Source: Patescibacteria group bacterium (GTDB taxonomy: Bacteria > Patescibacteriota > Saccharimonadia > Saccharimonadales > JAUPVS01). From it: a stretch of 64,000 nt of DNA. The notes under the pieces are model-generated. The model ran no database searches. It worked only from the letters and a program-made list of their open reading frames with translations, and was not told where the DNA came from. The stretch is from contig JAUPVS010000003.1 in NCBI GenBank assembly GCA_030916945.1, positions 6,536-70,535 of the forward strand. Reading direction: 5' to 3'. Position 1 is the stretch's first letter. Each line of letters starts with the position of its first letter. A program made the translations under genes and the position numbers. Shown piece after piece: positions 14,987 through 62,841 of this stretch.

Positions 14987-15244
14987 ATGAGTTCTTCTAG
15001 CGCTACCGACAAACCTACCGTCACTATATATAGTGCTACCTGGTGCGCCTTCTGTCATGCCGCCAAGGACTATCTAGATAAGAAAGGCGTCGCCTACACC
15101 GACCTCGACATCGAAAAAGACCCGGCCAATGCCCAAGCCGTTGTTCAGAAGTCCGGCCAGTTAGGCATACCGGTTTTAGACATAAATGGCACGATTATTG
15201 TTGGTTTTGACCGCCCTAAAATAGACGCCGCCCTGGGGGCCTAA
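14987..15244 (+). CDS. glutaredoxin-like / NrdH-type small redoxin
   Basis: 85 aa with a thioredoxin-fold pattern (TIYSATWCAFCHAAKDYLDKKGVAY...IPVL) and a CxxC of CAFC. TATAAT at 14972..14977 lies 9 nt upstream. Confidence 0.8.
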   Translation: MSSSSATDKPTVTIYSATWCAFCHAAKDYLDKKGVAYTDLDIEKDPANAQAVVQKSGQLGIPVLDINGTIIVGFDRPKIDAALGA

Positions 15245-49515: not shown

Positions 49516-50520
49516 CTAGGCTTTGGGTAGGGAAATTGTAACAGTCGTGCCTTTGCCAAGGCTGCTCTCGGCTGTAATTGAACCGCCGTGCAGCTGGACG
49601 ATGTTCTGGGCAATCGCCAGACCTAAGCCGTAGCCGTCGGTGGTGCCTTTGGTGCGCGACGAGTCAGCCCGGTAAAAACGCTCAAAGATGTGCGGTAATT
49701 CTTCTTCACTAATTCCAGGGCCTTGATCGGTTACGGTAATTATAACGTCACCTCGGCCAGGCTTGGCTACAACCGTAACCTGGGACTTTTTAGGACTATA
49801 TTTAACAGCGTTGTCCAACACCGTTACCAAGGCCTCGGTTAAACCGGCTTGGTCACCCAAAACTTGGGCATCAGCCGGAACAGACTGGCTAACTAAATTG
49901 TGTTTGGGTTCGGCCAGTGGTAAAACCCGGTCAACCGCAGCTTGCACCAAAGTGTGAACCGACACGGCTTCTTTAGGTAAGTCAGAGGCTTCTAGTTGAG
50001 CCAGGCGCAGCAAGCCTTCCGACAGCGCCGTTAGTTTATCTAATTCTTCTAAATTACTCTGCAGCTGATCTTTGGCGTCAGCCAGCTTTAGCTTAGGGTC
50101 GCTCAACGTAACCTCAATTTCGGTGCGCATGGCGGTGATCGGCGTGCGCAATTCGTGGCTGGCATCGGCCGTAAAGCGGCTTTGGGCTTGGTGGGCTTCT
50201 TCTATCGGCTTAAGGGTCCGGCGCGCCAGGTAGTAACTTAAAAAGCCGGCCCCAACCATAATTAGCAGGTTAATAAAGATTAGCTGGGCAATGACGTGGC
50301 CGCGAATGTCGTTATAGATGTCTTCGCGCTGCTGAATATAAGATTGCTGGCGAAACGGGCCGGAACCGAACACGCGCTGGACAACTTCGGTCTGGCGATC
50401 AAAACCACGGTCGACCTCATGCATCGACAGATTGTACAAGGCCACACTAAAGAAGATGCTGATGGCCATAATAATACCCAGATACAAACCAGTCAGACGC
50501 AGCGATGTCTGGTGAAACAC
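49516..50520 (-). CDS. membrane sensor histidine kinase
   Basis: 334 aa with two TM segments flanking a short loop. H-box ASHELRTPIT, N-box LDNAVKYSP, G-boxes DQGPGI and GYGLGLAIA. Confidence 0.85.
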   Translation of the reverse strand: MFHQTSLRLTGLYLGIIMAISIFFSVALYNLSMHEVDRGFDRQTEVVQRVFGSGPFRQQSYIQQREDIYNDIRGHVIAQLIFINLLIMVGAGFLSYYLARRTLKPIEEAHQAQSRFTADASHELRTPITAMRTEIEVTLSDPKLKLADAKDQLQSNLEELDKLTALSEGLLRLAQLEASDLPKEAVSVHTLVQAAVDRVLPLAEPKHNLVSQSVPADAQVLGDQAGLTEALVTVLDNAVKYSPKKSQVTVVAKPGRGDVIITVTDQGPGISEEELPHIFERFYRADSSRTKGTTDGYGLGLAIAQNIVQLHGGSITAESSLGKGTTVTISLPKA

Positions 50521-51200
50521 TAGGGTTGCTCCCCAAACACATAACCAAAACCACGCCGCGTATGGATTAGGTCGGGCGAATCAAACGGCTTGTCGATTTT
50601 ATTACGTAGGTAGCCAATATACACCTCGACGGTGTTGGGCAAGATGTCGGCATCGTAGTTCCAAACATTCTGAATCAGCTGGTCACGGGTGATGACGCGA
50701 CCGGGATTGCGCATTAAATATTCTAGTAAAGAAAATTCCAACGCGGTTAGGGTAATCGGGCTACCTGAGCGGGTGACCACAAAGTTTTCGGGATCAAGCG
50801 TGACGTCACCGTGCACCAACACCGTTCCTAAAGCCTGTTGCGGGCGACGCAACAACGCACGTACCCGGGCAATTAGCTCCACAAAAGCGAACGGTTTAAC
50901 CAAGTAGTCGTCGGCACCGGCGTTGAGCCCTTCGGCCCGGTTGAGTACGTGGTCTTTGGCAGTTAACAGTAGGACCGGTGTGTGGTTGTCGGCCTGACGC
51001 AAGGCTTTAAGAATTCCCATGCCATCTACGGCGCCGGGTAACATTCTATCTAAAATAACCAGGTCATATGGTTCGTTTAAGGCCAGTTCTAAACCCTTGT
51101 CACCGTCGTGAGCCATATCAACGGCATACGACTGGCGCTCTAAGCCGCGCTTAACAGCGGCGGCAATTTTGTGATCATCTTCGACAATAAGTATTCGCAT
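50520..51200 (-). CDS. OmpR-family response regulator
   Basis: MRILIVEDD, DLVILDRMLPG, and a winged-helix C-terminus (LTALEFSLLEYL...RGFGYVF). Its stop overlaps the kinase start. Confidence 0.9.
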   Translation of the reverse strand: MRILIVEDDHKIAAAVKRGLERQSYAVDMAHDGDKGLELALNEPYDLVILDRMLPGAVDGMGILKALRQADNHTPVLLLTAKDHVLNRAEGLNAGADDYLVKPFAFVELIARVRALLRRPQQALGTVLVHGDVTLDPENFVVTRSGSPITLTALEFSLLEYLMRNPGRVITRDQLIQNVWNYDADILPNTVEVYIGYLRNKIDKPFDSPDLIHTRRGFGYVFGEQP

Positions 51201-51283
51201 ATCCTACCAATAGTATACAGCCTGCCTGAGAAACCTCTGATAGTTATTGACTCACTGGCTTATAGGTTGTATAAATAAATCAA

Positions 51284-51754
51284 ATGACGACTCTAGAGGA
51301 GCCCCCGTCCGGGCCCGAATTTCCCGAACCACTGTTAGCACCCCAAGGCTATCTAGCACTTGACGACTGTCAACTGGGACGAATCTATCACGCTGCCGAT
51401 GCCGATAACGATCGGTTTGGCTACCTAACCGTTAATACCCATGAGGTGCCGGTATTTACTACCGTTCACTTGCGTGGCGCCGAAGTAATTACCCACCAGG
51501 AATACCATGCCGACATAGCTGGCTCGTTTAGACCAAGCCGGGCCGTAGAAGTCGACCTAGACGGGCTGGACGAAACCAGCGTCCTGGTACTACTGGCTGT
51601 TTGCGGCTTACATACTGCCCGGCAGCGACTGCGCGAACTCGAAGCCACTGGTAACGGCTGGCAAACACCAGATGAAGCCTTAACTTATGAAGAAGCCGCC
51701 ATGCGTGTTAACTATTACGAGCGACTTTTGAGTGGGCTAACCGAAGCCGATTAG
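51284..51754 (+). CDS. hypothetical acidic protein (156 aa)
   Basis: Clean ORF (TATAAA lies 8 nt before the ATG). No family recognised. Confidence 0.45.
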   Translation: MTTLEEPPSGPEFPEPLLAPQGYLALDDCQLGRIYHAADADNDRFGYLTVNTHEVPVFTTVHLRGAEVITHQEYHADIAGSFRPSRAVEVDLDGLDETSVLVLLAVCGLHTARQRLRELEATGNGWQTPDEALTYEEAAMRVNYYERLLSGLTEAD

Positions 51755-51771
51755 TCTATACTGTAGGGCAG

Positions 51772-54276
51772 ATGATTTGGTACCAGCAAACCCCTCAGGC
51801 AATTCTTAAAGAACTCGAAACCAGCGAGGCCGGCCTAAGCAGCAGTGAGGCTCAAGCCCGCCTAAAAACCTATGGTCCTAACGAGCTGTCTTTAAAGAAA
51901 GAGCCGCTCTGGAAGGTAATTGTCGAGCCGTTCCGCGGAGTCTTTGTAGCCGTCTTGGTGGCGGCCGCCTTTGTCAGCCTAATCAGCCATGAACCACTCG
52001 AAGCCGTTATTATTAGCGTTATCATCTTGGTGGGGGCGGTTATCTTTTACGTTCAACAGTACGCCACCAACCGCGTCTTGCGCAGCCTTAAAAAAACCAG
52101 TGTTCAACAGGTGGCTGTCCAGCGCGACGGTAGCCTGCAGACAATTTCGGCGCTCGACCTCGTGCCGGGCGACATCTTACTGCTGGCCGAAGGCGAACGG
52201 GTACCAGCCGATGCTCGTATCGTTCAGGCCGAAGGCCTCCAGGTCGACGAGTCGGCCTTAACCGGCGAGTCGGTACCGGTTCATAAACACAACTCGGTAC
52301 TTACTAATAAGAAACAGATGTACGAACAAGACAACATGGTCTTTCAGGGCACCTACGTCGTTAGTGGCGGCGGCCAGGCTGTTGTTGTCGAAACTGGCAG
52401 CAAGACAGCTTTTGGTAAGATCGCCCAGTTAGCCGGTGGCGACAAAACCGTTAGCCCGGTCCAAGTTAAAATTGATCACTTAATTTCGTTGATGGTTAAG
52501 GCCATTGGCGTGCTGGCGCTGGTGGTGTTTGCCTTGTCGCTGGCCCGCGGCATTCCGACTTCTGAAGCTCTACGCTTTGTGCTGTCGTTAAGTGTGTCGG
52601 CCGTACCAGAAGGCTTGCCAGTGGCCCTGACCGTTATTATCGTCCTAGGCATGCGCCGTATGGCCAAACACAAGGCACTGGTTCATTCTTTTAAAGCCAT
52701 CGAGGATATTGGTCTAGTTACTACCATTGCCACCGACAAGACCGGCACCCTAACCAAGAACAAGCTAACTATTGTTGACAGCTGGTCCATAGGCAAAGAA
52801 CAGGTGACTACTATTGCCGGTATGACGCTAGACGTTAGCCAGCGCGTCACTGACCCACTCGACCAAGCCATCATCGACAGTATGAAGGCCGAGTCGCACA
52901 CCACCGTTAATCAGGTCTATCCCTTCGACAACGCCCTGCGCATGAGTGGCGCCTACAGCCAGTCACGCCAGACCATCTTCTTTAAGGGTGCGCCAGAGCA
53001 CATTCTGTCGCATTCGACCTTGAGTGATGCTAAGCGCAGCCAAGCCGAGTCAGCCTTGCACAGTTTCGCTTCTAAAGGTTACCGTGTTATTGCCGTCGCC
53101 AAACATAAATTTGCCGGTAAGCCACCTAAGAACCTGACCGGTTTAAAGAATCAGAAGCTCGACTTTATTGGCTTTTTAGCCCTGGCCGATGAGCTACGCG
53201 AAGAGTCCAGTGACGCTATTAAGGCCGCCCAAGCCGCCGGCATTAGTGTCCGGATGATCACCGGCGACCATTACGAAACGGCCTTTAATATTGGTAAAAA
53301 GCTGGGCCTGGCGACACACCCCGACCAAGTAATCCAGGGGACCGAACTGCCTAAAGAAGTTCACGCCCTAGCCCAGACAATTAAAACCAAGACAGTGTTT
53401 GCGCGCATCCTGCCCGAAGATAAGTTCCGCGTCCTGCAGGCGTTAAAACAAACCGAAATCACCGCCATGACGGGCGATGGTGTTAACGATGTACCAGCCC
53501 TAACCAATGCCCATGTTGGCATTGCCATGGGGTCGGGCAGTGACATCGCGCGCGACGCCGGTGGCATCGTCTTGCTCGATGACAACTTTGCCACCATCGT
53601 TAATGCTATCGCCGAAGGGCGCAAAATCTTTGCCAATATCCGGCGCATGCTGTTCTACTTATTAGCCACCTCGATGGGTGAAATGCTAACCATGATCGGT
53701 GCCTTGCTACTGGGCTTTCCACTGCCAATTACCGCTATTCAAATCCTTTGGATCAACCTGGTAACCGATACGGCTTTGGTGCTGCCACTAGGCTTGGAAC
53801 AGGCCGAAGACGGCACTATGCAAAAGCCGCCGCGCCGCCCTAACGAACCGCTACTTAACCGCATCCTACTGAGCCGCCTGGCATTAGTGGCACTGACCAT
53901 GGCAATTGTTACGCTAAGCATCGTGGCCGTCTTAAAAGGGCAGGGGCAGACTACCGAGTACATCCAGACGGTGGCTTTTATGGCCCTGGTTGTCGCCCAG
54001 TGGACCAACGCCTTTAACGCCCGCAGCGAGTACGGTTCGCTCTTAAGCGGCTGGCGCCGACTTAACATCGGTATGCTGGTTGGCTTACTAGTGGGCTTTA
54101 GCCTGCAGATGCTAGTTATGTTTGGGCCGCTGCAAACTGTTTTTGCAATCGCCGATGTACCGCTTGAGGTCTTACTGACCACCTCGGGAATCATGCTTGT
54201 GGCGATAGCCGGTGTGGCCGAAGTTCACAAGTTTGTTAGCCGACTTATTCGCGACGCAGGGCATCAATCGGGTTAA
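51772..54276 (+). CDS. P2-type cation-transporting ATPase (Ca2+/Mg2+-ATPase-like)
   Basis: 834 aa. TGES, the TM4 motif AVPEGLP, the phosphorylation site DKTGTLT, and the hinge TGDGVNDVPAL. Confidence 0.9.
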   Translation: MIWYQQTPQAILKELETSEAGLSSSEAQARLKTYGPNELSLKKEPLWKVIVEPFRGVFVAVLVAAAFVSLISHEPLEAVIISVIILVGAVIFYVQQYATNRVLRSLKKTSVQQVAVQRDGSLQTISALDLVPGDILLLAEGERVPADARIVQAEGLQVDESALTGESVPVHKHNSVLTNKKQMYEQDNMVFQGTYVVSGGGQAVVVETGSKTAFGKIAQLAGGDKTVSPVQVKIDHLISLMVKAIGVLALVVFALSLARGIPTSEALRFVLSLSVSAVPEGLPVALTVIIVLGMRRMAKHKALVHSFKAIEDIGLVTTIATDKTGTLTKNKLTIVDSWSIGKEQVTTIAGMTLDVSQRVTDPLDQAIIDSMKAESHTTVNQVYPFDNALRMSGAYSQSRQTIFFKGAPEHILSHSTLSDAKRSQAESALHSFASKGYRVIAVAKHKFAGKPPKNLTGLKNQKLDFIGFLALADELREESSDAIKAAQAAGISVRMITGDHYETAFNIGKKLGLATHPDQVIQGTELPKEVHALAQTIKTKTVFARILPEDKFRVLQALKQTEITAMTGDGVNDVPALTNAHVGIAMGSGSDIARDAGGIVLLDDNFATIVNAIAEGRKIFANIRRMLFYLLATSMGEMLTMIGALLLGFPLPITAIQILWINLVTDTALVLPLGLEQAEDGTMQKPPRRPNEPLLNRILLSRLALVALTMAIVTLSIVAVLKGQGQTTEYIQTVAFMALVVAQWTNAFNARSEYGSLLSGWRRLNIGMLVGLLVGFSLQMLVMFGPLQTVFAIADVPLEVLLTTSGIMLVAIAGVAEVHKFVSRLIRDAGHQSG

Positions 54277-55483
54277 TCTTGTGGGCACGTTTAGCCGGGA
54301 AGAAAGCTACCAGTAAGCCGACTACCGTCATAAAGCCCACCAAGGCGGCGATCAGCCAGAATGGGGTCGAGAACAGGACAAAACTCTCTTTGACGCCACG
54401 GTTGCGCGCAAAGTTGTTCATTAGCACGTTAACAATCTGACCAGTAGTTACTGCCAAGGTTATACCAATGACAGCGCCAGCTACCGATAGCAAAACGGCT
54501 TCTAATACAAACAACTTGCTCATATCACGGTTACGGCCGCCCAGGGCCATCATCAAACCAATTTCGCGGGTTCTTTCTAGCAATGAGATAGTTAGGGTGT
54601 TAAACATGCCTAGTACGGCCACAATCATGCCAATGGCGCCAAAACCAACCAGTATGACGTTAAAGAACTTGAAGATCTGATTGATCTGTTCGATTGTGTC
54701 GCTCGGTGAACTGGTTTCAAAACCTTGGCTTTGAATTTGCGAACGCAAACCGGCCACATTTTTGGAATTATCAGAAATTAGTTTCATCTGGGTGTAGCTG
54801 GTGACACCAATGTCTGTAAAGATAAAGCTCGGTACATAGACTTCACTGCCGGCCCCTGACTTAACCACGCCAATTACCGTGAACTCATCCTTAACCTCGG
54901 CCTTTTTAGCCTTAGGATCTTTCATTGGTATAACCAGGGTGATCTTTTTATTGATAATCTCACTATTAGACTTGTAGCCGACCGCTTTAACGGCCGCTTC
55001 GTTAAGCATTACGACGCGGTTATCTTCTTTTTTAAGACTGCGACCACCACCCAGCGAAAAGTCAGTTAGCTCCAGATAGCCCTGATCAACACCATAAACA
55101 ATCGTATCAACCGAGCTGCCACGCTGGTTCATGCTACCGGGAAACGAATACTGCAGGCCGTACTTTTCGACATGGGGCAGATTCTTAATTTTATCGACCT
55201 GTTCGTTATTTAGCTGCACCACCTTCGAGTTAGCCGAACTGATGTCAATCGACTTAACCGAACTGTTGCCAACAATTTCTTTGGTAACCAGATTCTGGAT
55301 GCCTAAACCAAACGATAGCAAAAAGAAGATGGCACCGATACCAATAATGACACCGAATATGGTCAAGAAGGTTCGAAGCTTTTTACTTACCAAGTTACGC
55401 CAGGCAATATAGATGACCATGCGCAACGGAATGGCCGTGTAGTGTTTCTTAACGCCGTGGTTATTGGTCTTTTCGGACGGCAT
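54245..55483 (-). CDS. MacB/FtsX-type ABC transporter permease
   Basis: 412 aa. It has an N-terminal TM, a large extracytoplasmic domain of about 230 aa, and a C-terminal FtsX module (LERTREIGLMMALGGRNRDM). Its start overlaps the ATPase gene by 23 nt. Confidence 0.85.
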   Translation of the reverse strand: MPSEKTNNHGVKKHYTAIPLRMVIYIAWRNLVSKKLRTFLTIFGVIIGIGAIFFLLSFGLGIQNLVTKEIVGNSSVKSIDISSANSKVVQLNNEQVDKIKNLPHVEKYGLQYSFPGSMNQRGSSVDTIVYGVDQGYLELTDFSLGGGRSLKKEDNRVVMLNEAAVKAVGYKSNSEIINKKITLVIPMKDPKAKKAEVKDEFTVIGVVKSGAGSEVYVPSFIFTDIGVTSYTQMKLISDNSKNVAGLRSQIQSQGFETSSPSDTIEQINQIFKFFNVILVGFGAIGMIVAVLGMFNTLTISLLERTREIGLMMALGGRNRDMSKLFVLEAVLLSVAGAVIGITLAVTTGQIVNVLMNNFARNRGVKESFVLFSTPFWLIAALVGFMTVVGLLVAFFPAKRAHKINPIDALRRE

Positions 55484-56276
55484 CCATCATCTCCTCGGTT
55501 TTTTTATGCTCCAGGTGCTTGGATCGCGACAGATTATTCAGACGCTGCTTCATGTTATCCAGCAGTTCTTCGGCCGTTTTGGTAATTGAACCGTCGCGCA
55601 TTTCTTGAATCTGGCCATCTTCTATATGGATAAGGTGATCGGCCAGCGGTAAGTATTCCATGTTATGGGTCACCAAAATAATCGTGCGCTTAAACTGGGT
55701 CTGACATTCGCGCAGCAAGTTCATGATCATGTCGCCATTCTTACTATCCAAGCTACCAGTTGGTTCGTCGGCAATAATAAATAGCGGGTCATTAACCAAG
55801 GCTCGGGCTGTGGCGATACGTTGTTGCTCACCACCCGACAGCAGCGACGGGTACTTCTTGGCATACTGACCCATGCTGACGCGGTCTAGGGCGGTCATGG
55901 CAATCTTGGCGGCCTGCGACTTGTTGTAACCCAAAAAGTACAGTGGCATCGACACGTTTTCGATCACACTCAAGCTCTTCACCCAATAGTTAGTCTGGTA
56001 GACAATGCCGATTCGGTTAGCTCTAAAATGAGCTAGTTCGTCGGGCTTAAGCGCGTAGACGTCCTTGCCTTCAAAAAGAACCTGACCCTTGGTGGGCCGC
56101 TGCAAGCCGGTTAAGACGTTCAAGAGGGTAGACTTACCACTACCAGACGGACCATAGATGATGTTAAAACTGTTCTCGGTCAGTTCAAAACTAACTTTCT
56201 GCAAAGGCTTAATGACCTCGTCACCAACCGTAAACTCTTGTTCAATATTAGTAGCTTTAACCAAGATATTTGCCAT
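55461..56276 (-). CDS. ABC transporter ATP-binding protein (MacB/LolD/FtsE-like)
   Basis: [26 protein letters not shown] and [11 protein letters not shown]. It has a C-terminal charged extension of about 45 aa. Its ATG lies 2 nt after the stop of the giant gene. Confidence 0.9.
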
Positions 56277-56278
56277 AG

Positions 56279-59200
56279 CTAGAAACCAAACACTTTCTTG
56301 AGGGTATTAAGTATGATCGTCAAAACGCTGTCCGAGGCCCGGCCAACAATGGCCGACTGAATTTCGCCGGTTCCTGAGTTGCCAGAACGGTCTTTGGACA
56401 CCGGCTGCATACTGTAAACGCGTGAGGTTGGCAGGTCGGATACAATTACGACGTGCTCGGTACTCAGAGCCGAATCTTCGGCCGTCTTGCTGTTAAACAC
56501 GGTGACACCAGCGCCGTCAGCAAAGGCAACCTGGCTGGTCGATGGCTCGTCGGTTCGCCACGACACTACCACTTGGCCGCGAGCTTCGGCGCCAACCCCA
56601 CGGATGGCTGGTTCAATGCTAATATTGCTGATCTTGGGCGGACGAGTATCAAGCGCGGTTCTAAAGGTTTGACGGTCTGACACCGCCAAGTTACCGTCTT
56701 TGTCGCGCGACTGAGCAATTAGGGTGTACTCGCTGTCATCTTCTAGAGCCCTGATCACAATTTCGTGCGACGTAACCTGTTCCGACAACTGAGCGTCAGT
56801 GGTACCACCGCCAACTTTTCCGTATGTAATTAAGGTAGAGGACGGCACGTTGGTATCCCAGGTTATCTTTTGGGTACTGGTCGGTTCGCCGCTAACTGGC
56901 TGGAAGCGCAGATTATTAATCCGCGGGCGAGGTGGGGTAGTAAAGGCAGCTACGCTACCATCGTAGGAGTTGCCTTCGCTGTCCGACGATACCAATTTAT
57001 AGAAGTACTTGCTACCATCGTCCAAGCCCTCGAGCGATACATTATAGACCGACTCACTGAGCGATGTATTAACTGTTTTAAGACCACCGTAACCTTCGTT
57101 CTTGCCGTAATAAACAGCTACCTTGGTAGCGTCCTTAGAAGTAAATTGAATGGTGGCATCGGTTAAACCAACGCGCACGGCTGACACCTCTTTAAGACTT
57201 GGCGCCGGGGAGGTTGTAAAGGTATATTCTTGGCTGGTTCCAGTGTTACCGTCTTCGTCGGTCCACTTAGCCACAAAGTAGTAGGTGGTTCCAGCACTAA
57301 GATTGTCCAGCTCAATGGTGTGGGCGCTAACCTGGGTCGAGTTACCCACTTCCGAAGAAGCGTACTGACCACTGGCCGTACCAATCGCCACCTTGGAGTC
57401 ACTAGCCCGGTCGGTACTCCAACTTATCTTAGCTTTTTTGGTAGTCACGTTGCTAACAGTTGGCTCGGCCACAATCACGGCTGGCGTCGTGAACTTACCA
57501 GTAGGAATCTGGTCGACGTTGCTACTAACCGAACCGCAATTATTAGTGCTGTCACAAGCCTTTACATGGTAGTAGTAGCGTTGCGCCGATAAGCCGGCAT
57601 CGATGTAGGTCGTGCTAGTACTACTACCAACAAAGCTAAAGGTGACATTGTTGGTCGAGCGGTAAACCTTGTAGCTGGCAATTCCAGCACCAGTGTAAGA
57701 CGGCGCGTCCCAGGTTAGCGCTAAGCGCCAGTTACTGGTGGACTTGATTGAAACATCTACGATATCAACGTTCAACGGTATGCCCGGCGACGGCGTATTA
57801 GTCGTAAAGTCGGTTTGGGCGTAGTTAGAGTAGTTAATGTTACCAGACTCGTCCTTGGCCACTAGGTACATCGTGTTCAGGCCGGGCTGCGTACCATAAG
57901 CACCGGTTCCCAGGCTAAGCGCCCCGGCGTTGGTATAAGAGCAGGTGACATCGCTTGGCAGGGTATTAAAGGTGTAGCAGTAAGTCAGGTTGTTGGCGTC
58001 GCCAATAAAGGTATTGGGCGCGAACCAGCTAAACGAGAAGGCGTTGACGGTATTGGTAGAAGGGCTAGGCGCCAAACCTTGCGGTGCGCTGGGTGCCCCC
58101 GAGGTATTAACTTTTAGAGCGGCCGTGACATAACTAGTTGTCACGTTGCCGGCCTGGTCCCAGGTTCGAAACGATACCGTATTGACACCCTCGGCGATGT
58201 TGGCAAAATCGGGCGTGTTTTGGGTGGTATAGCTACCGTCGTTCGCTAGCAAGTCGCTGGAGTCGCCAGTACCACTATGGCTGTCACCGTACCAGGTAGT
58301 ATTACCAATCTTATACTGCAAGCCAGCAATACCACTGTTACTATCGGCCGGCGCGGCAACGCCGCTGGTCGGCCAAGTCAGGCTAGCTGTTTTGGTATTA
58401 ATAAAGCCCGACGGCGCCGTCACATAGCCCGGGTTAGCTGGAGCGGTGTTGTCAAAACGGAAGTAGAACTGGGCACCAGTGTCGGCCACGTTGCCAGCGT
58501 TATCAATTGCCTTAACCGTTAGGTAATAGGCCGAATCACTAGTCGTCAGGGCAGTGCCCAAGTAACTGGCTGTAGCCGTGTCGATGTTTGTTCCAGCAAC
58601 AATAAACTGACAGTTATTACCAGTAGCGACCGGGCTGGTTCCCAATAATCCCTTAGTCGTTACCGGGTCGGCCGTGTTGTCGGTTCCCAAATACAAACAG
58701 TAGCCCTTAATGCCAGAATCAGCATCTGTGCCGGCCGTCCAGCTAAAGTAGGGCGAGGAGCCGTTGGTCCAAGCATTCTGCGCCAGTGACGAGCCACCGG
58801 CGGCTTTAAGAGCCGTCACATTACTGGCGTTAACCGACGGGTCAACACTATCCGAGGTTGACGCCAGGGCCACACCGTCCAGCGTCACTTGCTGAGTGCC
58901 ATCGCCGGTCATAACCGCCTGCCAGGTAATACCACCAAAGGTGACGGGGAATTCATCGATATTGGCGTCGATTGTGGCAATAGCATTAGACATTGACGTA
59001 TCGGTCGACTCTACCCAGGCGCTGCCATTCCAGTGTCGCCAGCTCGAACCACCGTCGTTGGACAGCCGATAGGCAATGGTGCCGCCATTGGCTGTTTCGT
59101 TACTAGTCATATTGTCATAACTTTTAACCCCGGCAGTTCTGACCGCCGATGCCAAAGTTACAGTTTGAGCACTAGCACTATACGGTTTGGTCGTAAGAGT

Positions 59201-62200
59201 CGACCGATAATTATTACTGACGCGAACCTCATCTAAGCGGGCGTCAATGTAGCCAGCGTCTTTAGAAGCGCCGCCACTACCATAGCCACTACCAATGTAG
59301 AGTTTGCTGGTACTGTCGGGCATACTCAAGGTCTTGGTCGCCGAACCGGTAACCGTACCATCAACCACAATCTCCATGGTCGTGCCGTTGTAGCGACCAG
59401 CCACATGATGCCAGTTGGTATCTTGGGTGGTAGCCGAGGCTTGTACAAAACCGTTGTCGCCATAAGACCAAACCATGGCGTCGGTGTTGGCGGTATCACC
59501 CATACCGGCGTAGAGTTTGCCCTGGAAAACTGTCATGGTACCAACGTTTTCAATAATGTTGTTAGTCCAACCAACACCATCACCACCAATTGCCGTCCAA
59601 GTCGTACCGTTGTACTTATAAATCTCACCGTCACCCGTGCTTAGGCCAAGCGAAGCGTAAAGATCGCCGTTATAGACCACCATGCTACGGACTCGTTCGT
59701 AGCCAACGCTTTCTAACCAACCCAAGTTATCGGTCGGCGGGTCAGAACTATCACCACCGATCTTGGTCCAAGACGGCGTCGCATCGCAGGTAGTACATTG
59801 CCAGACTTCGGCATCACTGTTACCAACACCGGCACCGGTTAAGCCAAGTCCGGCCACCAGTTTGTCGTTGTAGACGGCTAGGGAAGCGACTTCTTCATAG
59901 CTGGTGTTCCAACTCGAGTACAAGCCACTACCACCAACTTGTGTCCAAGCTGTGCCGCTGCCGCTGTAGCGATACACCCGGCCTTGGTTGGCGCCGTGTC
60001 CAATACCGGCGTACAGCGTTCCTTTATAAGTAACCAGCGCACCAACGCGAGTGTGCGCCGTGCCCCAGTTGCCAGAAGCGGTGCCACCAATTTGCGTCCA
60101 AGTCGGCGTGCCATCACAGCTGGTACATTCATAGACCCGGGCGTCGCCACCGGCGCTATTGCCAATACCGGCGTAAAGCTTACCGTTGGCAACAGCCAAT
60201 GATTCTACCGTCTCTATGGTAGTGTTCCAGCTCGAACCGGTGCCATCGCCACCAACTTTGGTCCAGGCCGAACCATCGTAACGCCAAACCTCCGAATCGT
60301 TGGTATTGGAGCCAATCCCAACGTAAAGTTTATTCTTATAATTAACCATCGACAGAACTGCCTCGTAGGTATCGGCCGCCCAACCACTATTGATACCTTG
60401 GCCGCCGATCATCGTCCAAACGCTGGTGGCTGGGTCGTATTCCCAAACCGTAGCATTACCGGCGGTGGTATTACCGGTACCAGCGTACAGCTTGCCGCCA
60501 ACCGTAGTCGTAGACTCGACGCTCTGAAAACCAGCTTGACCCCAGCTCTTGTTACGGTACTGACCACCAATTCGGGCACCGCCCCAGGCCGGACTAGTGT
60601 CGCAACTGGTGCAACGCCAAACATGTCCAAGCGTGGCGTTCGACAGCCCAGCGTACAGCGTCGTGCCATCGACTAGCAAGGACTGGACCTGGGTGTGAGT
60701 AGAGTTCCAGCCACTGTTCACGCCATCACCACCAACCTTGGTCCAGGTTGGACTGGTTGAGCAACTAGTACAACGCCAGACTTCATCTTCGTTGGTAGTA
60801 TTGCCTAAGCCAACATAAACCGTCGTGCCATTGGCCACAATATCCCATACTTGGTCGTGGGTGGTACCCCAGTAGGTAACGGTGCTTTCGGCAATCTTGG
60901 TCCAGCCAGCCGTGGCCGTACAAGACGAACTAATATCGCAGCGCCAAACTTGAGCATCGGTCGCGCTGTTTCCAGTTCCGACATATAAGAAGTTACCACT
61001 GGCCGCTAAACCTGTAACGTACTCAAAGGCCGACGCCCAGCTCTGGCCGCCACTGCCGCTGCCGTCGCCACCGCGCTTGGTCCAAACTGGCGTGCCACTG
61101 GCACAGTTGGTAGTACATTGCCAGACTTCGCCATCGCCAGCCGTTAAGCCCAAGCCCACCACTGGGTTGCCGCCAATTAGGGTCATGCTAGAAACAGTTT
61201 CGTAAGTAGTGTTTGCCCAGCTACTATTTACACCATCGCCGCCAATGCGGGCACTACCCCAGTCGGGGGCCGTGTCACAGCTGGTACAGCGCCAGACCTC
61301 AGCCTCGCCGGCGGCGTTCAAGCCTAAACCAACCCATACTGTACTACCGCTAACAGCCATCGAGGCAACCGCCTCGTAACCGCCGGCCGCCGACCAACTA
61401 TTATTTACACTATCACCACCAATCTTGGTCCAGCTAGTGCCATTGAAACGCCACACCTCGGAGTCGGCCCCCGAGTTTTTACCTAAACCAGCATATAGGT
61501 AGGTCGTGCCGTCGGTAGCCATAGACGCCACCGACTCAAAAGCATTGGCTGTTACCTGGTTGGTCCAACTGCCATTAATGCCATCACCAGCGACTTGCTC
61601 CCAGGTACCACCACTGGTGTCATAGCGCCAGATTTCGGCATCGTTACTACTACCACCTAAGGCGGCGTAGACATATGAACCAAGTTTAACCTGCTTGGTA
61701 ACGTTTTGTTTGCCGTTAGTATCCCAGCTACGCTTAATCTTGGCGCCGTTGGCGTTTAATAAATCACCACCGGCTTGCTGGGTCCAGTTCATGCCGCCTG
61801 AGTTTTCTAATTCGTAGGTAACCTTACCAGTTTCGTTATCGTAGTAAAGCTGATACTTACCCTTGTCAATAACGCCCTGCTTATAGGGGTGGCTACCAGC
61901 ACTAAAGGCATTATTAAACTTAACCCAGCCCTCGACGGTATGACTTCCGGTTAGCGACAGCGAGGCCGAGTCGTCGGCGCTGGCATTCTGACTGGAACCG
62001 TTCAGCGCCAGCCCATTATTTAAGTTACCAGTGACAAAACTAGGCGTTCCACTGGTCGTACCGTTGTTACTATTACTACTAGAATCGGTCGCCGTCGTGC
62101 CGCTAGATGAGTCAAGGTGATACAGAGCGGCCGTATTGCCATCATTATCATAATTCTGGGCTTTTAAGCGGGCACTGCTGCCACTGGTCTCGACACCACT

Positions 62201-62683
62201 ACTTAAGTTATATGGAGCAGCGCTAGAAAAGTTCCAAGTATCGTTTAAGTCAGACAGGGCATAGGCTTTTTGGTAAACCCTAAACACTAAAAAGCCAACA
62301 AACAAAATGTAAATCGCTATCAGCGCATAGTGGACTTGTGGATGCTTTTCGTAGTTATGCCAGCGATCGTACCAGGCCACTTTTCGTCTTAAGTGTTCAT
62401 GTGGACGAACTGCCACATGGTGATGGACGACTTTGCTGCCGCGGCGCACGCCCACCGCTGTTACAACGGCGATTTTTTTGGAATGACGACCGGCCGTCGC
62501 GACACCCTTTTTGGCGTGATGAGCCGTTGTCTTGGCTGACCTGACAGCTACTGGCTTGACTACTCGATGTGTGTTTTTAAGGGCTTTTACAGATGAGTTC
62601 TTGGCTACGCGTAACCCAGAACCGGCTTTTTTGGTTGCTTTTTTGACAAAAAGCAAGCTAGCTGTCTGCTTGTTTTTCCCCAT
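56279..62683 (-). CDS. giant membrane-anchored surface protein (2134 aa): basic cytoplasmic tail, one TM, a split LamG-type domain enclosing a 14-blade repeat array, then Ig-like and FN3-like arrays
   Basis: The start is set at ATG 62683 (MGKNKQ). The TM is ALIAIYILFVGFLVFRVY. The Laminin_G_3-type halves are GNLNNGLALNGS...HTVEGWVKFN and TNWHHVAGRYNGTTMEIVVDG...LYIGS...IDARLDEVRVSN. The repeats and C-terminal modules are listed as separate features. Confidence 0.85.
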   Translation of the reverse strand: MGKNKQTASLLFVKKATKKAGSGLRVAKNSSVKALKNTHRVVKPVAVRSAKTTAHHAKKGVATAGRHSKKIAVVTAVGVRRGSKVVHHHVAVRPHEHLRRKVAWYDRWHNYEKHPQVHYALIAIYILFVGFLVFRVYQKAYALSDLNDTWNFSSAAPYNLSSGVETSGSSARLKAQNYDNDGNTAALYHLDSSSGTTATDSSSNSNNGTTSGTPSFVTGNLNNGLALNGSSQNASADDSASLSLTGSHTVEGWVKFNNAFSAGSHPYKQGVIDKGKYQLYYDNETGKVTYELENSGGMNWTQQAGGDLLNANGAKIKRSWDTNGKQNVTKQVKLGSYVYAALGGSSNDAEIWRYDTSGGTWEQVAGDGINGSWTNQVTANAFESVASMATDGTTYLYAGLGKNSGADSEVWRFNGTSWTKIGGDSVNNSWSAAGGYEAVASMAVSGSTVWVGLGLNAAGEAEVWRCTSCDTAPDWGSARIGGDGVNSSWANTTYETVSSMTLIGGNPVVGLGLTAGDGEVWQCTTNCASGTPVWTKRGGDGSGSGGQSWASAFEYVTGLAASGNFLYVGTGNSATDAQVWRCDISSSCTATAGWTKIAESTVTYWGTTHDQVWDIVANGTTVYVGLGNTTNEDEVWRCTSCSTSPTWTKVGGDGVNSGWNSTHTQVQSLLVDGTTLYAGLSNATLGHVWRCTSCDTSPAWGGARIGGQYRNKSWGQAGFQSVESTTTVGGKLYAGTGNTTAGNATVWEYDPATSVWTMIGGQGINSGWAADTYEAVLSMVNYKNKLYVGIGSNTNDSEVWRYDGSAWTKVGGDGTGSSWNTTIETVESLAVANGKLYAGIGNSAGGDARVYECTSCDGTPTWTQIGGTASGNWGTAHTRVGALVTYKGTLYAGIGHGANQGRVYRYSGSGTAWTQVGGSGLYSSWNTSYEEVASLAVYNDKLVAGLGLTGAGVGNSDAEVWQCTTCDATPSWTKIGGDSSDPPTDNLGWLESVGYERVRSMVVYNGDLYASLGLSTGDGEIYKYNGTTWTAIGGDGVGWTNNIIENVGTMTVFQGKLYAGMGDTANTDAMVWSYGDNGFVQASATTQDTNWHHVAGRYNGTTMEIVVDGTVTGSATKTLSMPDSTSKLYIGSGYGSGGASKDAGYIDARLDEVRVSNNYRSTLTTKPYSASAQTVTLASAVRTAGVKSYDNMTSNETANGGTIAYRLSNDGGSSWRHWNGSAWVESTDTSMSNAIATIDANIDEFPVTFGGITWQAVMTGDGTQQVTLDGVALASTSDSVDPSVNASNVTALKAAGGSSLAQNAWTNGSSPYFSWTAGTDADSGIKGYCLYLGTDNTADPVTTKGLLGTSPVATGNNCQFIVAGTNIDTATASYLGTALTTSDSAYYLTVKAIDNAGNVADTGAQFYFRFDNTAPANPGYVTAPSGFINTKTASLTWPTSGVAAPADSNSGIAGLQYKIGNTTWYGDSHSGTGDSSDLLANDGSYTTQNTPDFANIAEGVNTVSFRTWDQAGNVTTSYVTAALKVNTSGAPSAPQGLAPSPSTNTVNAFSFSWFAPNTFIGDANNLTYCYTFNTLPSDVTCSYTNAGALSLGTGAYGTQPGLNTMYLVAKDESGNINYSNYAQTDFTTNTPSPGIPLNVDIVDVSIKSTSNWRLALTWDAPSYTGAGIASYKVYRSTNNVTFSFVGSSTSTTYIDAGLSAQRYYYHVKACDSTNNCGSVSSNVDQIPTGKFTTPAVIVAEPTVSNVTTKKAKISWSTDRASDSKVAIGTASGQYASSEVGNSTQVSAHTIELDNLSAGTTYYFVAKWTDEDGNTGTSQEYTFTTSPAPSLKEVSAVRVGLTDATIQFTSKDATKVAVYYGKNEGYGGLKTVNTSLSESVYNVSLEGLDDGSKYFYKLVSSDSEGNSYDGSVAAFTTPPRPRINNLRFQPVSGEPTSTQKITWDTNVPSSTLITYGKVGGGTTDAQLSEQVTSHEIVIRALEDDSEYTLIAQSRDKDGNLAVSDRQTFRTALDTRPPKISNISIEPAIRGVGAEARGQVVVSWRTDEPSTSQVAFADGAGVTVFNSKTAEDSALSTEHVVIVSDLPTSRVYSMQPVSKDRSGNSGTGEIQSAIVGRASDSVLTIILNTLKKVFGF
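56357..57769 (-). repeat. tandem FN3-like modules of about 95 aa at the C-terminus of the giant protein
   Basis: The recurring pattern is x(I/V)xW(x)TDxxSxSxVxYG...T(H)x(I/V)xLxxLxxxTxYY(F)...D..GN...S....F(T/R)T. At least four copies were seen (KISWSTDRASDSKVAIG, IQFTSKDATKVAVYYG, ITWDTNVPSSTLITYG, VVSWRTDEPSTSQVAFA), preceded by a classic FN3 (ALTWDAPSYTGAGIASYKVYRS). Confidence 0.65.
59456..61795 (-). repeat. 14 tandem protein-level repeats of about 45-65 aa (propeller-blade-like) inside the giant gene
   Basis: Consensus: W(T)x(I/V)GGDG(V/I)NxSW...(V/A)xS(L/M)...G.LYAG(L/I)G......(A/S)EVW(R/Q)(Y/C). It is seen 14 times between ORF-track residues about 313 and 1092. Confidence 0.75.
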
Positions 62684-62841
62684 AATGTTACCTTGTTTAA
62701 TATAGCATAAAAGCAATGAATTTGAATACATTTTTTACACAGTTGCAAGACGATTCAATTTTGCAAATTTTACAATTCTGTTGTCAAATTAACTTTACCT
62801 AGCCCCGCCTGGCAGGCTATACTTAGGTCAAAGGGGGATCT

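What the first reader, a model, noticed from the sequence alone, without database searches (positions are those of the whole stretch)
59456..61795. Fourteen blade-like repeats in two linker variants, seven carrying a Cys pair
I counted 14 repeats, each ending in (E/Q/H/R)V(W/Y)xx. Seven have a Cys-bracketed loop directly after the VW motif:
- VWRCTSCDTAPDW
- VWQCTTNCASGTPVW
- VWRCDISSSCTATAGW
- VWRCTSCSTSPTW
- VWRCTSCDTSPAW
- VYECTSCDGTPTW
- VWQCTTCDATPSW

The other seven have a short aromatic linker instead: IWRYDTSGGTW, VWRFNGTSW, VWEYDPATSVW, VWRYDGSAW, VYRYSGSGTAW, IYKYNGTTW, VWSYGDNG. Fourteen blades would fit two 7-bladed propellers or one large one. Conserved CxxC-type loops on an extracytoplasmic protein suggest disulfide staples or metal sites at the inter-blade connections.
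Basis: seen in the sequence. Interest (0 to 1): 0.6.

Follow-up and report, generated by a model that had tools for sequence, protein, structure and literature searches.

The report
Double propeller with disulfide-stapled loop variants
The region encodes two seven-bladed beta-propellers inserted into a lectin-like domain of a giant envelope protein from a Saccharibacteria-type ultrasmall bacterium. The "Cys pair" repeats are a longer version of one outer hairpin that always carries exactly two cysteines, which points to a stabilising disulfide rather than a metal or catalytic site.

Summary
One 2150-aa ORF (window 56279-62731, minus strand) holds 14 repeats of about 55 aa at aa 313-1092. Seven carry the quoted Cys-bracketed loops.

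- **Fold:** structure prediction gives four strands per repeat and two seven-bladed propellers, not one large ring. The array is inserted inside a split LamG/ConA-like jelly roll.
- **Position of the Cys loop:** it is the hairpin between the third and fourth (outermost) strand of a blade. It is not an inter-blade connector.
- **The 0-or-2 rule:** in 83 related loci (1054 hairpins), 822 have no Cys, 232 have exactly two and none has one. All 814 short loops lack Cys, and 232 of 240 long loops carry the pair.
- **Variability:** Cys-Cys spacing varies from x2 to x7. The number of paired blades per orthologue runs from 0 to 9, and hairpins 8, 9 and 13 essentially never carry the pair.

This fits optional structural disulfides stapling expanded surface loops and argues against metal knuckles. 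Cys-Cys distances could not be measured.

The gene lies directly upstream of a MacB/FtsX-type ABC transporter. That order holds in nearly all related loci long enough to show it. No curated family covers the repeat. Function is inferred, not shown.

The parts
56279..62731 (-). Whole gene: 2150-aa envelope protein. Order: basic tail, TM/signal anchor, LamG N-half, 14 blades, LamG C-half, then fn3-like and PAP_N-like domains.
   Evidence: ORF; Pfam domains; orthologues with the same order.
62330..62731 (-). N-terminal Lys/Arg/His-rich tail (aa 1-134), presumed cytoplasmic, with a conserved RPH..L....WY..WH.W..H..VH motif.
   Evidence: Sequence; the same motif in P0001, P0003, P0006, P0012 and P0016. 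Topology is inferred.
62273..62329 (-). Single hydrophobic helix (aa 135-153, YALIAIYILFVGFLVFRVY) followed by AYA|L. This is a signal anchor or a cleavable signal peptide.
   Evidence: Homologues have VYA|S, IFA|A and TYA|A at the same place. Cleavage is inferred.
61796..62239 (-). N-terminal half of a LamG/ConA-like jelly roll (aa 165-312).
   Evidence: Pfam Laminin_G_3 matches in 2 stretches. Predicted strands at aa 264-308 have pLDDT 80-93.
59456..61795 (-). Array of 14 Kelch-like four-stranded blades (aa 313-1092), predicted to form two seven-bladed beta-propellers.
61766..61786 (-). Orphan outer strand D0 (WTQQAGG, aa 316-322), which must complete a blade elsewhere (velcro closure).
   Evidence: Predicted strand. 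The total of 28 strands = 7x4 requires it. Which blade it joins is not resolved.
61259..61297 (-). Cys-pair hairpin 3, VWRCTSCDTAPDW (C482/C485).
61082..61126 (-). Cys-pair hairpin 4, VWQCTTNCASGTPVW (C539/C543).
60902..60949 (-). Cys-pair hairpin 5, VWRCDISSSCTATAGW (C598/C604).
60743..60781 (-). Cys-pair hairpin 6, VWRCTSCSTSPTW (C654/C657).
60584..60622 (-). Cys-pair hairpin 7, VWRCTSCDTSPAW (C707/C710), next to the most conserved stretch of the array (aa 716-784), the likely junction between the two rings.
60098..60136 (-). Cys-pair hairpin 10, VYECTSCDGTPTW (C869/C872).
59768..59806 (-). Cys-pair hairpin 12, VWQCTTCDATPSW (C979/C982).
59201..59455 (-). C-terminal half of the LamG/ConA-like jelly roll (aa 1093-1177).
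   Evidence: Pfam Laminin_G_3, best stretch aa 1072-1177, 41.7 bits against a cut-off of 27.6. Predicted strands have pLDDT 79-94.
56282..59200 (-). C-terminal 970 aa: fn3 and three Pur_ac_phosph_N-type Ig-like domains plus unassigned stretches. It holds three further Cys pairs (1345/1374, 1585/1597, 1726/1732).
   Evidence: It is more conserved than the propellers, up to 75% against 41-49% for most non-close orthologues.
55461..56276 (-). ABC transporter ATPase immediately downstream on the same strand (LolD/FtsE/MacB-like).
   Evidence: Pfam ABC_tran; NCBIfam best hits below cut-offs; conserved neighbour.
54245..55483 (-). MacB_PCD + FtsX permease, overlapping the ATPase gene.
   Evidence: conserved neighbour.

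Best explanation
**What it is.** aa 313-1092 of a 2150-aa extracytoplasmic envelope protein fold into two seven-bladed beta-propellers. They are built from 14 Kelch-like blades of about 55 aa. Each blade has four strands: A (VxS[LM]), B (LYAGLG), C (DAEVW) and D (WTKIGG). The whole array is inserted into a loop of a LamG/ConA-like jelly roll. The organism is a Saccharibacteria-type member of the Patescibacteria.

**The two 'linker variants'.** These are two alternative states of one structural element, the hairpin from strand C to the outermost strand D.
- **State 1:** a tight five-residue turn, [W/Y/F]-[N/D]-G-[S/T]-x, then W.
- **State 2:** a 9-12-residue Thr/Ser-rich loop. The aromatic residue is replaced by Cys1. 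Cys2 follows 2-7 residues later (Cx2C, Cx3-4C or Cx5C types).

**How it most likely works.** The two cysteines form an intra-loop disulfide that closes the base of the expanded loop. This replaces the packing lost with the aromatic residue and holds a protruding surface loop rigid outside the cell.

**Evolution.** The cassette is optional and labile. It is gained and lost as a unit on 10 of the 13 hairpins. It is excluded from hairpins 8, 9 and 13. Those blades form an arc around blade 14 of the second ring, where the LamG domain is attached.

**Shown versus inferred.**
- Shown: repeat anatomy, the predicted fold, the split LamG, the strict pairing statistics, the blade-specific occupancy and the conserved synteny.
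- Inferred: disulfide chemistry, extracellular location, the face of the propeller that carries the loops, and any ligand-binding role.

**Function of the whole module.** It is most likely a ligand-binding (probably glycan-binding) envelope component that works with the adjacent MacB-type ABC transporter.
For: **Fold**
- Four predicted strands per repeat. The full model (aa 160-1195) has pLDDT 76.9 and pTM 0.71.
- aa 313-718 alone has pLDDT 88.4, pTM 0.92 and 28 strands.
- Foldseek hits at probability 1.0 are mostly tandem 7-bladed propellers, including GH74, Elp2 and Utp21. The single-ring model hits generic propellers.
- Family repeat counts cluster at 7, 14 and 21.

**Split LamG**
- Pfam Laminin_G_3 matches in two stretches flanking the array.
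- 14 of 22 homologues hit Laminin_G_3. Flanking sequence is conserved in orthologues.

**Pairing**
- 1054 hairpins from 83 related loci: 822 have 0 Cys, 232 have 2 Cys and 0 have 1 Cys. Random placement of the same cysteines gives about 304 singles, with a minimum of 253 in 1000 trials.
- All 814 short loops lack Cys. 232 of 240 long loops carry the pair.
- Cys1 sits at the aromatic position in 109 of 111 paired loops in a broader set.
- The extracellular Cys count is even in 58 of 66 full-length orthologues. In the query it is 20, or 10 pairs.

**Variable spacing and occupancy**
- Different cassette types occur at the same hairpin in different lineages.
- Occupancy is 0, 1 and 0 of 65 at hairpins 8, 9 and 13, against 12-28 of 65 at the others.

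**Extracytoplasmic setting**
- The N-terminal hydrophobic helix is followed by a small-x-small motif.
Against: - No coordinates were available, so Cys-Cys distances and ring closure were not measured.
- The AlphaFold alignments were shallow (22 and 39 sequences). The ring junction (aa 703-730) has pLDDT of only about 65.
- A Cx2C disulfide is strained and could instead be redox-active.
- No Dsb/VKOR-type oxidase was seen in the 64-kb window. Many Patescibacteria live in anoxic habitats.
- 22 orthologues manage with no Cys pair at all, so the cassette is dispensable for core function.
- The repeat profile was built from the query's own units.
- Blade indices in orthologues were assigned by order, not by phylogeny.
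- Some MAG taxon labels among the related loci (Gammaproteobacteria, Bdellovibrionales) were not verified.
Confidence: 0.7

Rival explanations
1. The Cys pairs are metal ligands. Zn or Fe knuckles would form when pairs on neighbouring blades combine into Cys4 sites at the rim.
For: CxxC is the classic metal-knuckle spacing. In the query five consecutive hairpins (3-7) carry pairs, so neighbouring pairs could in principle combine. An acidic residue often follows Cys2, as in CTSCD and CTGCE.
Against: Spacing ranges from x2 to x7 at equivalent hairpins. 28 orthologues have one isolated pair, and hairpins 10 and 12 of the query have no paired neighbour. No conserved His accompanies the pairs. Metal-binding Cys clusters are unusual in extracytoplasmic bacterial proteins (general knowledge).
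Confidence: 0.07
2. The CxxC loops are redox-active, thioredoxin-like motifs. They would carry out thiol-disulfide exchange with envelope or host-surface proteins.
For: Cx2C is the commonest cassette. Cx2C disulfides are strained and often reactive (general knowledge).
Against: There is no thioredoxin fold. The motif lies in a beta-hairpin, not at a helix N-terminus. It is interchangeable with Cx3C to Cx7C loops and with a Cys-free turn at the same hairpin. 22 orthologues have none.
Confidence: 0.05
3. The 14 blades form a single large 14-bladed ring or an open solenoid, not two closed 7-bladed rings.
For: The repeats are uniform. The orphan strand at the start and the missing D strand at the end would suit one closure across the whole array.
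Against: The top structural neighbours are mostly tandem 7-bladed propellers. Seven blades plus the orphan strand fold as one compact domain with pTM 0.92. Family members have 7, 14 or 21 repeats. A uniquely conserved segment sits exactly at blades 7/8.
Confidence: 0.05
4. The cysteines are substrates of another cross-link, such as a thioether or lanthionine-like bridge to the neighbouring Ser/Thr or a lipid or haem attachment. Alternatively they stay reduced and the loops alone matter.
For: The loops are rich in Thr/Ser next to Cys, as in CTSC and CTTC. Many CPR habitats are anoxic, and no oxidase was found in the window.
Against: A strict 0-or-2 rule is what Cys-Cys pairing predicts, whereas Cys-Ser/Thr bridges would tolerate single Cys. 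No modifying enzyme lies in the conserved neighbourhood, which holds only an ABC ATPase and a permease.
Confidence: 0.05

Closest known systems
Kelch-repeat beta-propellers (Pfam Kelch_1 to Kelch_6; galactose oxidase and KLHL-type domains)
   Same: Four-stranded blade of about 50 aa. A hydrophobic run plus Gly doublet (LYAGLG) is followed by spaced aromatics in the next two strands (VW...W). Weak Kelch_6, Kelch_4, Kelch_2 and Kelch_1 hits fall on the first repeat. Kelch domains appear among the structural neighbours.
   Different: Scores are below every Kelch gathering cut-off (best 18.3-20.3 bits against 25.3), and only 1 of 14 repeats is detected. The family has its own motifs, GGDGxNSSW in the D-to-A loop and GDAEVW. 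The rings have seven blades and come in tandem. The array is inserted in a LamG domain. The C-D hairpin exists in two states.
Tandem seven-bladed propellers (GH74 xyloglucanases 6mgl/5fkt, Elp2, Utp21 4nsx)
   Same: Best structural matches to the full model: two 7-bladed rings in one chain, Foldseek probability 1.0.
   Different: Identity is 9-14% and TM-score only 0.3-0.6. There is no sequence match to any solved structure and no BNR/Asp-box or WD40 Pfam hit. No catalytic residues can be proposed.
Asp-box (BNR) hairpins of sialidase/GH74-type propellers
   Same: From general knowledge, the Asp-box SxDxGxTW is a conserved hairpin between the third and fourth strands of a blade and ends in Trp. 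That is the same topological place as [WYF]-[ND]-G-[ST]-x-W here.
   Different: The consensus and register differ (D/N-G adjacent, no leading Ser). No BNR hit appears in Pfam. Asp-boxes are not known to alternate with disulfide-stapled insertions.
LamG / concanavalin-A-like lectin domains (PF13385 Laminin_G_3)
   Same: The flanking halves match above the curated cut-off, 41.7 bits against 27.6. Databases name the homologues 'LamG domain-containing protein'.
   Different: Here the jelly roll is interrupted by a 780-aa double propeller between two of its strands. The annotation therefore describes under 15% of the head region.
MacB/FtsEX/LolCDE-type ABC systems with an extracytoplasmic partner protein
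   Same: The two genes downstream encode an ABC ATPase and a MacB_PCD+FtsX permease. The three genes travel together in nearly all related loci. In known systems of this class, ATP hydrolysis moves an extracytoplasmic domain that acts on a partner (general knowledge).
   Different: Neither protein reaches any equivalog cut-off. No partner of this size or fold is described for the class. A physical link is only suggested by synteny and by one fusion of uncertain integrity (L003).

Membership tests
Beta-propeller fold (closed, 7-bladed) | Four-stranded antiparallel blades arranged in a closed ring. | tested here: met
   DSSP gives 4 strands per repeat. aa 313-718 gives 28 strands with pTM 0.92. 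Foldseek probability is 1.0 to many propellers, TM 0.4-0.68. This rests on prediction only, and no coordinates were inspected.
Tandem double propeller | Two separate rings in one chain. | tested here: met
   The top PDB neighbours are mostly tandem 7-bladed propellers. Repeat counts in the family are 7, 14 or 21. A conserved junction sits at blades 7/8.
Kelch repeat (Pfam Kelch_1..6) | Score at or above the Pfam gathering threshold. | tested here: not met
   Best is Kelch_6 at 18.3-20.3 bits against a cut-off of 25.3, on one repeat only. Only 3 of 22 homologues hit Kelch_4 at E <= 0.01.
Kelch repeat (Pfam Kelch_1..6) | Hydrophobic run plus GG, then spaced Tyr/Trp in the next two strands. | tested here: met
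   The consensus over 1143 blades is LYAGLG ... DAEVW ... W(100%)TKIGG.
WD40 / BNR (Asp-box) repeats | Pfam repeat models, or the SxDxGxTW or GH...WD motifs. | tested here: not met
   No WD40 or BNR family appears at E <= 1 in Pfam. The only similarity is at the fold level.
LamG / ConA-like jelly roll (PF13385) | Score above the gathering threshold and a jelly-roll strand pattern. | tested here: met
   41.7 bits against 27.6, in two stretches. Predicted strands on both sides of the insert have pLDDT 79-94. 14 of 22 homologues match.
Structural disulfide pair | The cysteines co-occur, being gained and lost together. | tested here: met
   232 hairpins with two Cys and 0 with one, out of 1054. 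The null expectation is about 304 singles.
Structural disulfide pair | Sulfur atoms within bonding distance in the folded protein. | not testable with these tools
   Structure prediction returns no coordinates. Only the positions are known: Cys1 at the end of strand C and Cys2 in the C-D loop.
Structural disulfide pair | Location in an oxidising (extracytoplasmic) compartment with an oxidase available. | tested here: inconclusive
   An N-terminal hydrophobic helix with an AxA-like site implies export. No Dsb/VKOR candidate lies in the 64-kb window; the only hit was a cytoplasmic YruB-type glutaredoxin-like ORF.
Cys4 / CxxC metal knuckle | Fixed ligand spacing and four ligands per site. | tested here: not met
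   Spacings of x2 to x7 occur at equivalent hairpins. 28 orthologues have one isolated pair.
MacB/FtsX-type (type VII) ABC transporter, neighbouring genes | ABC_tran ATPase plus a permease with MacB_PCD and FtsX domains. | tested here: met
   Pfam scores are above cut-offs: 105.3, 77.6 and 71.1 bits. No NCBIfam equivalog cut-off is reached.

The most novel reading that the evidence does not exclude
The giant LamG/double-propeller protein and its MacB-type ABC transporter may form a previously undescribed envelope machine shared across Patescibacteria. ATP-driven mechanotransmission by the permease would act on the membrane-proximal propeller head. The disulfide-stapled, lineage-variable rim loops would then be a fast-evolving recognition or evasion surface facing hosts or phages. 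The same blade repeat occurs on phage-tail proteins.
Probability: 0.2. Interest if true: 0.8.

Novelty: new variant of a known kind. Interest (0 to 1): 0.5.

Why it matters
Patescibacteria make up a large share of bacterial diversity, and the cultivated ones live attached to other cells. How their envelope binds and exploits hosts is largely unknown.

This analysis turns an opaque 'LamG domain-containing protein' into a defined architecture. It is a double propeller inserted in a lectin-like domain, with a clear rule for an optional disulfide-stapled loop. It also shows that the gene sits beside a MacB-type ABC transporter in dozens of species. That gives experimenters a concrete, conserved three-gene target.

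The repeat itself has no curated model, so a new profile would improve annotation of hundreds of proteins, including phage tail proteins. The short-turn versus Cys-stapled-loop switch is a clean natural example of how loop expansion is coupled to disulfide gain. That may interest propeller design work.

Tried and rejected
- **Sequence search of solved structures.** The 780-aa region gave nothing. The repeat profile gave only BamB at E >= 0.11.
- **PHROGs scan** of both halves of the protein gave no family.
- **Exact look-up** of the window protein in public assemblies found no record.
It worked with the blade 7/8 junction alignment A4.
- **Cys-Cys distances and ring closure.** The structure tool returns no coordinates and /data holds none, so these could not be measured.
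- **DNA-level tandem repeats:** none, so recent duplication is rejected.
- **Other copies of the repeat in the window:** none.
- **Dsb/VKOR-type oxidase in the window.** A CxxC screen found only a cytoplasmic glutaredoxin-like ORF.
- **Literature searches.** Terms covered LamG, propeller, MacB and S-layer in Saccharibacteria/Patescibacteria. No description of this family or module was found.
- **S. epibionticum annotation table.** It has no PF13385 entry in the text held. This is uninformative, because the file may be cut or the clade may lack the gene.
- **L003 fusion as proof of interaction.** L003 joins the propeller to an FtsX domain. I rejected it as proof because it has a frameshift and could equally arise from a deletion reaching into the downstream permease gene.
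Full report
**1. What is in the sequence**

The finding lies entirely within one ORF on the minus strand, 56279-62731, encoding 2150 aa. Coordinates 59456-61795 correspond to aa 313-1092.

- The motif (E/Q/H/R/T/M)-(V/I)-(W/Y)-x-(C/Y/F) occurs 14 times with spacing of 50-61 aa.
- The 13 complete units are 27-45% identical to the first unit.
- There is no DNA-level tandem repeat, and no other ORF in the window carries the repeat.
- The repeats are not a chance pattern. 74 database proteins match, the best at E = 1e-187. A profile of the units finds 888 of 1.84 billion representative proteins at E <= 1e-3.

**2. Fold**

AlphaFold2 on aa 160-1195, with 21 homologues in the alignment, gave pLDDT 76.9 and pTM 0.71. 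DSSP on the model gives four strands per repeat:

| Strand | Consensus |
|---|---|
| A | VxS(L/M)xV |
| B | LYAGLG |
| C | (D)AEVWx |
| D | WTKIGG |

- The best Foldseek matches to solved structures are dominated by tandem seven-bladed propellers: GH74 xyloglucanases, Elp2 and Utp21. Probability is 1.0, but TM-scores are only 0.3-0.6 and identity 9-14%.
- aa 313-718 alone gave pLDDT 88.4 and pTM 0.92 with 28 strands, which is 7 x 4. Its neighbours are generic propellers (WD40, Kelch, YncE, BamB, PL24 lyase) at TM 0.4-0.68.
- In the wider family the number of repeats per protein clusters at 7, 14 and 21.
- The most conserved stretch of the array is at blades 7/8, aa 716-784. This fits a ring-to-ring junction.

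Two seven-bladed rings is therefore the supported reading.

Which blade the orphan first strand (WTQQAGG, aa 316-322) completes could not be determined, because no coordinates are returned. In most orthologues hairpin 7 is the same tight turn as the other hairpins. I therefore favour the orphan strand pairing with the last blade, whose D strand is missing. That would bring both ends of the insert together at the LamG domain. This is inference.

**3. Context within the protein**

- Pfam places Laminin_G_3 in two stretches on either side of the array, 41.7 bits against a cut-off of 27.6. The model shows jelly-roll strands on both sides. The 780-aa double propeller is thus an insertion inside a LamG/ConA-like domain.
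- Upstream is a basic tail of about 130 aa and one hydrophobic helix followed by AYA|L. Homologues have VYA|S, IFA|A and TYA|A at the same place.
- Downstream are fn3 and purple-acid-phosphatase-N-type Ig-like domains.
- No curated family covers the repeat. Kelch models give only sub-threshold hits on one unit. NCBIfam gives nothing, and neither PHROGs nor PDB sequences give a significant match.

**4. The two linker variants**

Cys1 is the last residue of strand C, and Cys2 lies in the loop leading to strand D. In a propeller, consecutive strands C and D normally belong to the same blade. The element is therefore the outer intra-blade hairpin, not an inter-blade connector. The inter-blade link is the D-to-A loop, GGDGxNSSW....YE.

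I collected 83 related loci, 80 of them species-representative genomes and 3 fetched earlier (L001-L003). I then extracted every C-D hairpin with a repeat HMM.

| Hairpin class | Number (of 1054) |
|---|---|
| No Cys | 822 |
| Exactly two Cys | 232 |
| Exactly one Cys | 0 |

- Random placement of the same 464 cysteines gives about 304 single-Cys loops, never fewer than 253 in 1000 trials.
- Loop length and Cys content are tied together. All 814 loops shorter than 8 residues lack Cys, and 232 of 240 longer loops have the pair.
- Short loops are almost always five residues, beginning with W, Y or F in 94% of cases and followed by N/D-G-S/T. Cys loops are 9-12 residues.
- In a broader, more divergent set, 109 of 111 paired loops have Cys1 exactly at the aromatic position.
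- Spacings include Cx2C-x5/6-W, Cx3/4C-x5/7-W, Cx5C-x5-W and Cx5C-x2-W. The same hairpin carries different types in different lineages.
- Outside the propellers the protein has three more Cys pairs. The only unpaired Cys is in the N-terminal tail. 58 of 66 full-length orthologues have an even extracellular Cys count.

**5. Conservation**

- The near-identical relative L004 (a Saccharibacteria MAG, 93-98% aa identity, same flanking genes) keeps all seven pairs.
- Relatives at about 57-62% identity (L006, L008-L010) keep six, having lost the pair at hairpin 6.
- Beyond that, the number of paired hairpins per orthologue ranges from 0 (22 loci) to 9 (4 loci).
- Many Saccharimonadia have a single Cx5Cx2W loop at hairpin 2, which the query lacks.
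- Among 65 orthologues with 13 hairpins, pairs occur at hairpins 1-7 and 10-12 in 12-28 loci each. At hairpins 8, 9 and 13 they occur in 0, 1 and 0 loci.

In a seven-membered second ring (blades 8-14), blades 13, 14, 8 and 9 are neighbours, and blade 14 is where the chain returns to LamG. The simplest reading is that LamG packs on that arc and leaves no room for expanded loops. This is inference.

**6. Mechanism**

The strict 0-or-2 rule, the coupling to loop expansion, the replacement of a packing aromatic by Cys1, the variable spacing and the export signal together point to intra-loop disulfides. These would staple protruding rim loops.

- Metal knuckles are disfavoured by the variable spacing and by isolated single pairs.
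- A thioredoxin-like redox role is disfavoured by the hairpin context and by free interchange with Cys-free turns.
- The missing decisive evidence is the Cys-Cys geometry and chemistry.

By the usual propeller convention (general knowledge), C-D hairpins lie on the face opposite the D-A and B-C loops. Those loops carry the most conserved polar residues of the repeat over 1143 blades: D19 72%, N22 77%, W25 94%, E31 72%, D54 83% and E56 95%. I therefore suggest a conserved face that binds a repetitive ligand, possibly a glycan. This would fit the LamG context and the presence of the repeat on phage-tail proteins. The opposite rim would be variable and disulfide-braced. This functional step is a hypothesis.

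**7. Neighbourhood**

Immediately downstream on the same strand are an ABC ATPase (55461-56276) and a MacB_PCD+FtsX permease (54245-55483). Both are LolD/FtsE/MacB-like but fall below every equivalog cut-off.

The order LamG-N, propellers, C-terminal region, ABC ATPase, permease recurs in nearly every related locus that is long enough (gene calls). The records are labelled Saccharibacteria, WWE3, Woesebacteria, Moraniibacteriota and 'Patescibacteria group'. Some MAGs carry other labels that I did not verify.

One locus (L003) joins TM + LamG-N + blades directly to an FtsX TM2-4 domain. It has a frameshift and could be a deletion product.

**8. Comparison with what is known, and novelty**

- The fold is a known kind.
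- The repeat is Kelch-like in motif but fails Kelch membership.
- The closest structures are tandem propellers with no detectable sequence relationship.
- My literature searches found no description of this family or of the three-gene module.

I rate it a new variant of a known kind. It is an uncurated propeller family with a LamG-insertion architecture, a two-state hairpin and a conserved ABC partnership.

**9. Limits**

- The structures are predictions from shallow alignments.
- No coordinates, distances or interfaces were inspected.
- The HMM was built from the query's own repeats.
- Blade indices in orthologues were assigned by order.
- Function, topology, signal cleavage and disulfide formation are all inferred.

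Noticed in passing
window 54245-56276 (-), with L001, L002 and L004-L083: An ABC ATPase and a MacB_PCD+FtsX permease follow the giant gene on the same strand. The same three-gene order is seen in nearly all related loci long enough to show it, across several Patescibacteria lineages.
   Followed up: partly
L003:7235-10283 (protein P0023): TM helix + LamG N-half + about 12-14 blades run straight into an FtsX TM2-4 domain, with a 1-nt frameshift in the first blade. This is either a real fusion linking the propeller to the permease or a deletion/pseudogene.
   Followed up: partly
proteins P0041, P0043, P0044, P0050, P0052: The same blade repeat is fused to phage-tail domains (PF13550/PF23666). 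This suggests the propeller can serve as a receptor-binding module in phages.
   Followed up: no
window 62273-62731 (-), aa 1-153: There is an unusually long Lys/Arg/His-rich N-terminal tail (~130 aa) with a conserved RPH..L....WY..WH.W..H..VH motif just before the single hydrophobic helix. After the helix comes a small-x-small motif (AYA|L) that looks like a signal-peptidase site. The motif is shared by P0001, P0003, P0006, P0012 and P0016.
   Followed up: partly
window 56279-56330 (-), C-terminal end: The protein ends ...LNTLKKVFGF. P0045 ends ...ISNLQQVFGFIRR. This is a conserved C-terminal motif of unknown role, possibly for sorting or anchoring.
   Followed up: no
window 59456-60556 (-), hairpins 8, 9 and 13: These three hairpins essentially never carry the Cys loop in 65 orthologues (0, 1 and 0), against 12-28 at the other ten. 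Together with blade 14 they form a contiguous arc of the second ring, probably the LamG docking site.
   Followed up: partly
window 56282-59200 (-): The C-terminal fn3/Ig-like region is more conserved among orthologues (up to 75% identity) than the propellers (41-49% for most non-close orthologues). It has three further Cys pairs: 1345/1374, 1585/1597 and 1726/1732.
   Followed up: partly
window 14987-15244 (+): An 85-aa YruB-family glutaredoxin-like protein (WCAFC), 93.9 bits against a cut-off of 88.55. It was the only thiol-oxidoreductase-like candidate among the short ORFs (<500 aa) with a CxxC motif in the window. No Dsb/VKOR candidate was seen.
   Followed up: partly
window 49516-54276: A two-component pair (HisKA/HATPase_c kinase and OmpR-type regulator) and a P-type cation ATPase lie just downstream of the module. 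The ATPase and the upstream YGGT-family gene are syntenic only in the near-identical MAG L004.
   Followed up: no
window 59878-60676, both strands: Four ORFs of 86-104 aa overlap the propeller gene in other frames. They have biased composition and lie inside a gene with strong homology support, so they are almost certainly spurious.
   Followed up: no
loci L014, L019, L021, L023, L031 and others: Many records carrying this Patescibacteria-type module are labelled Gammaproteobacteria, Bdellovibrionales, Pseudomonadales or Bacillota in TPA MAG titles. The labels may be wrong.
   Followed up: no
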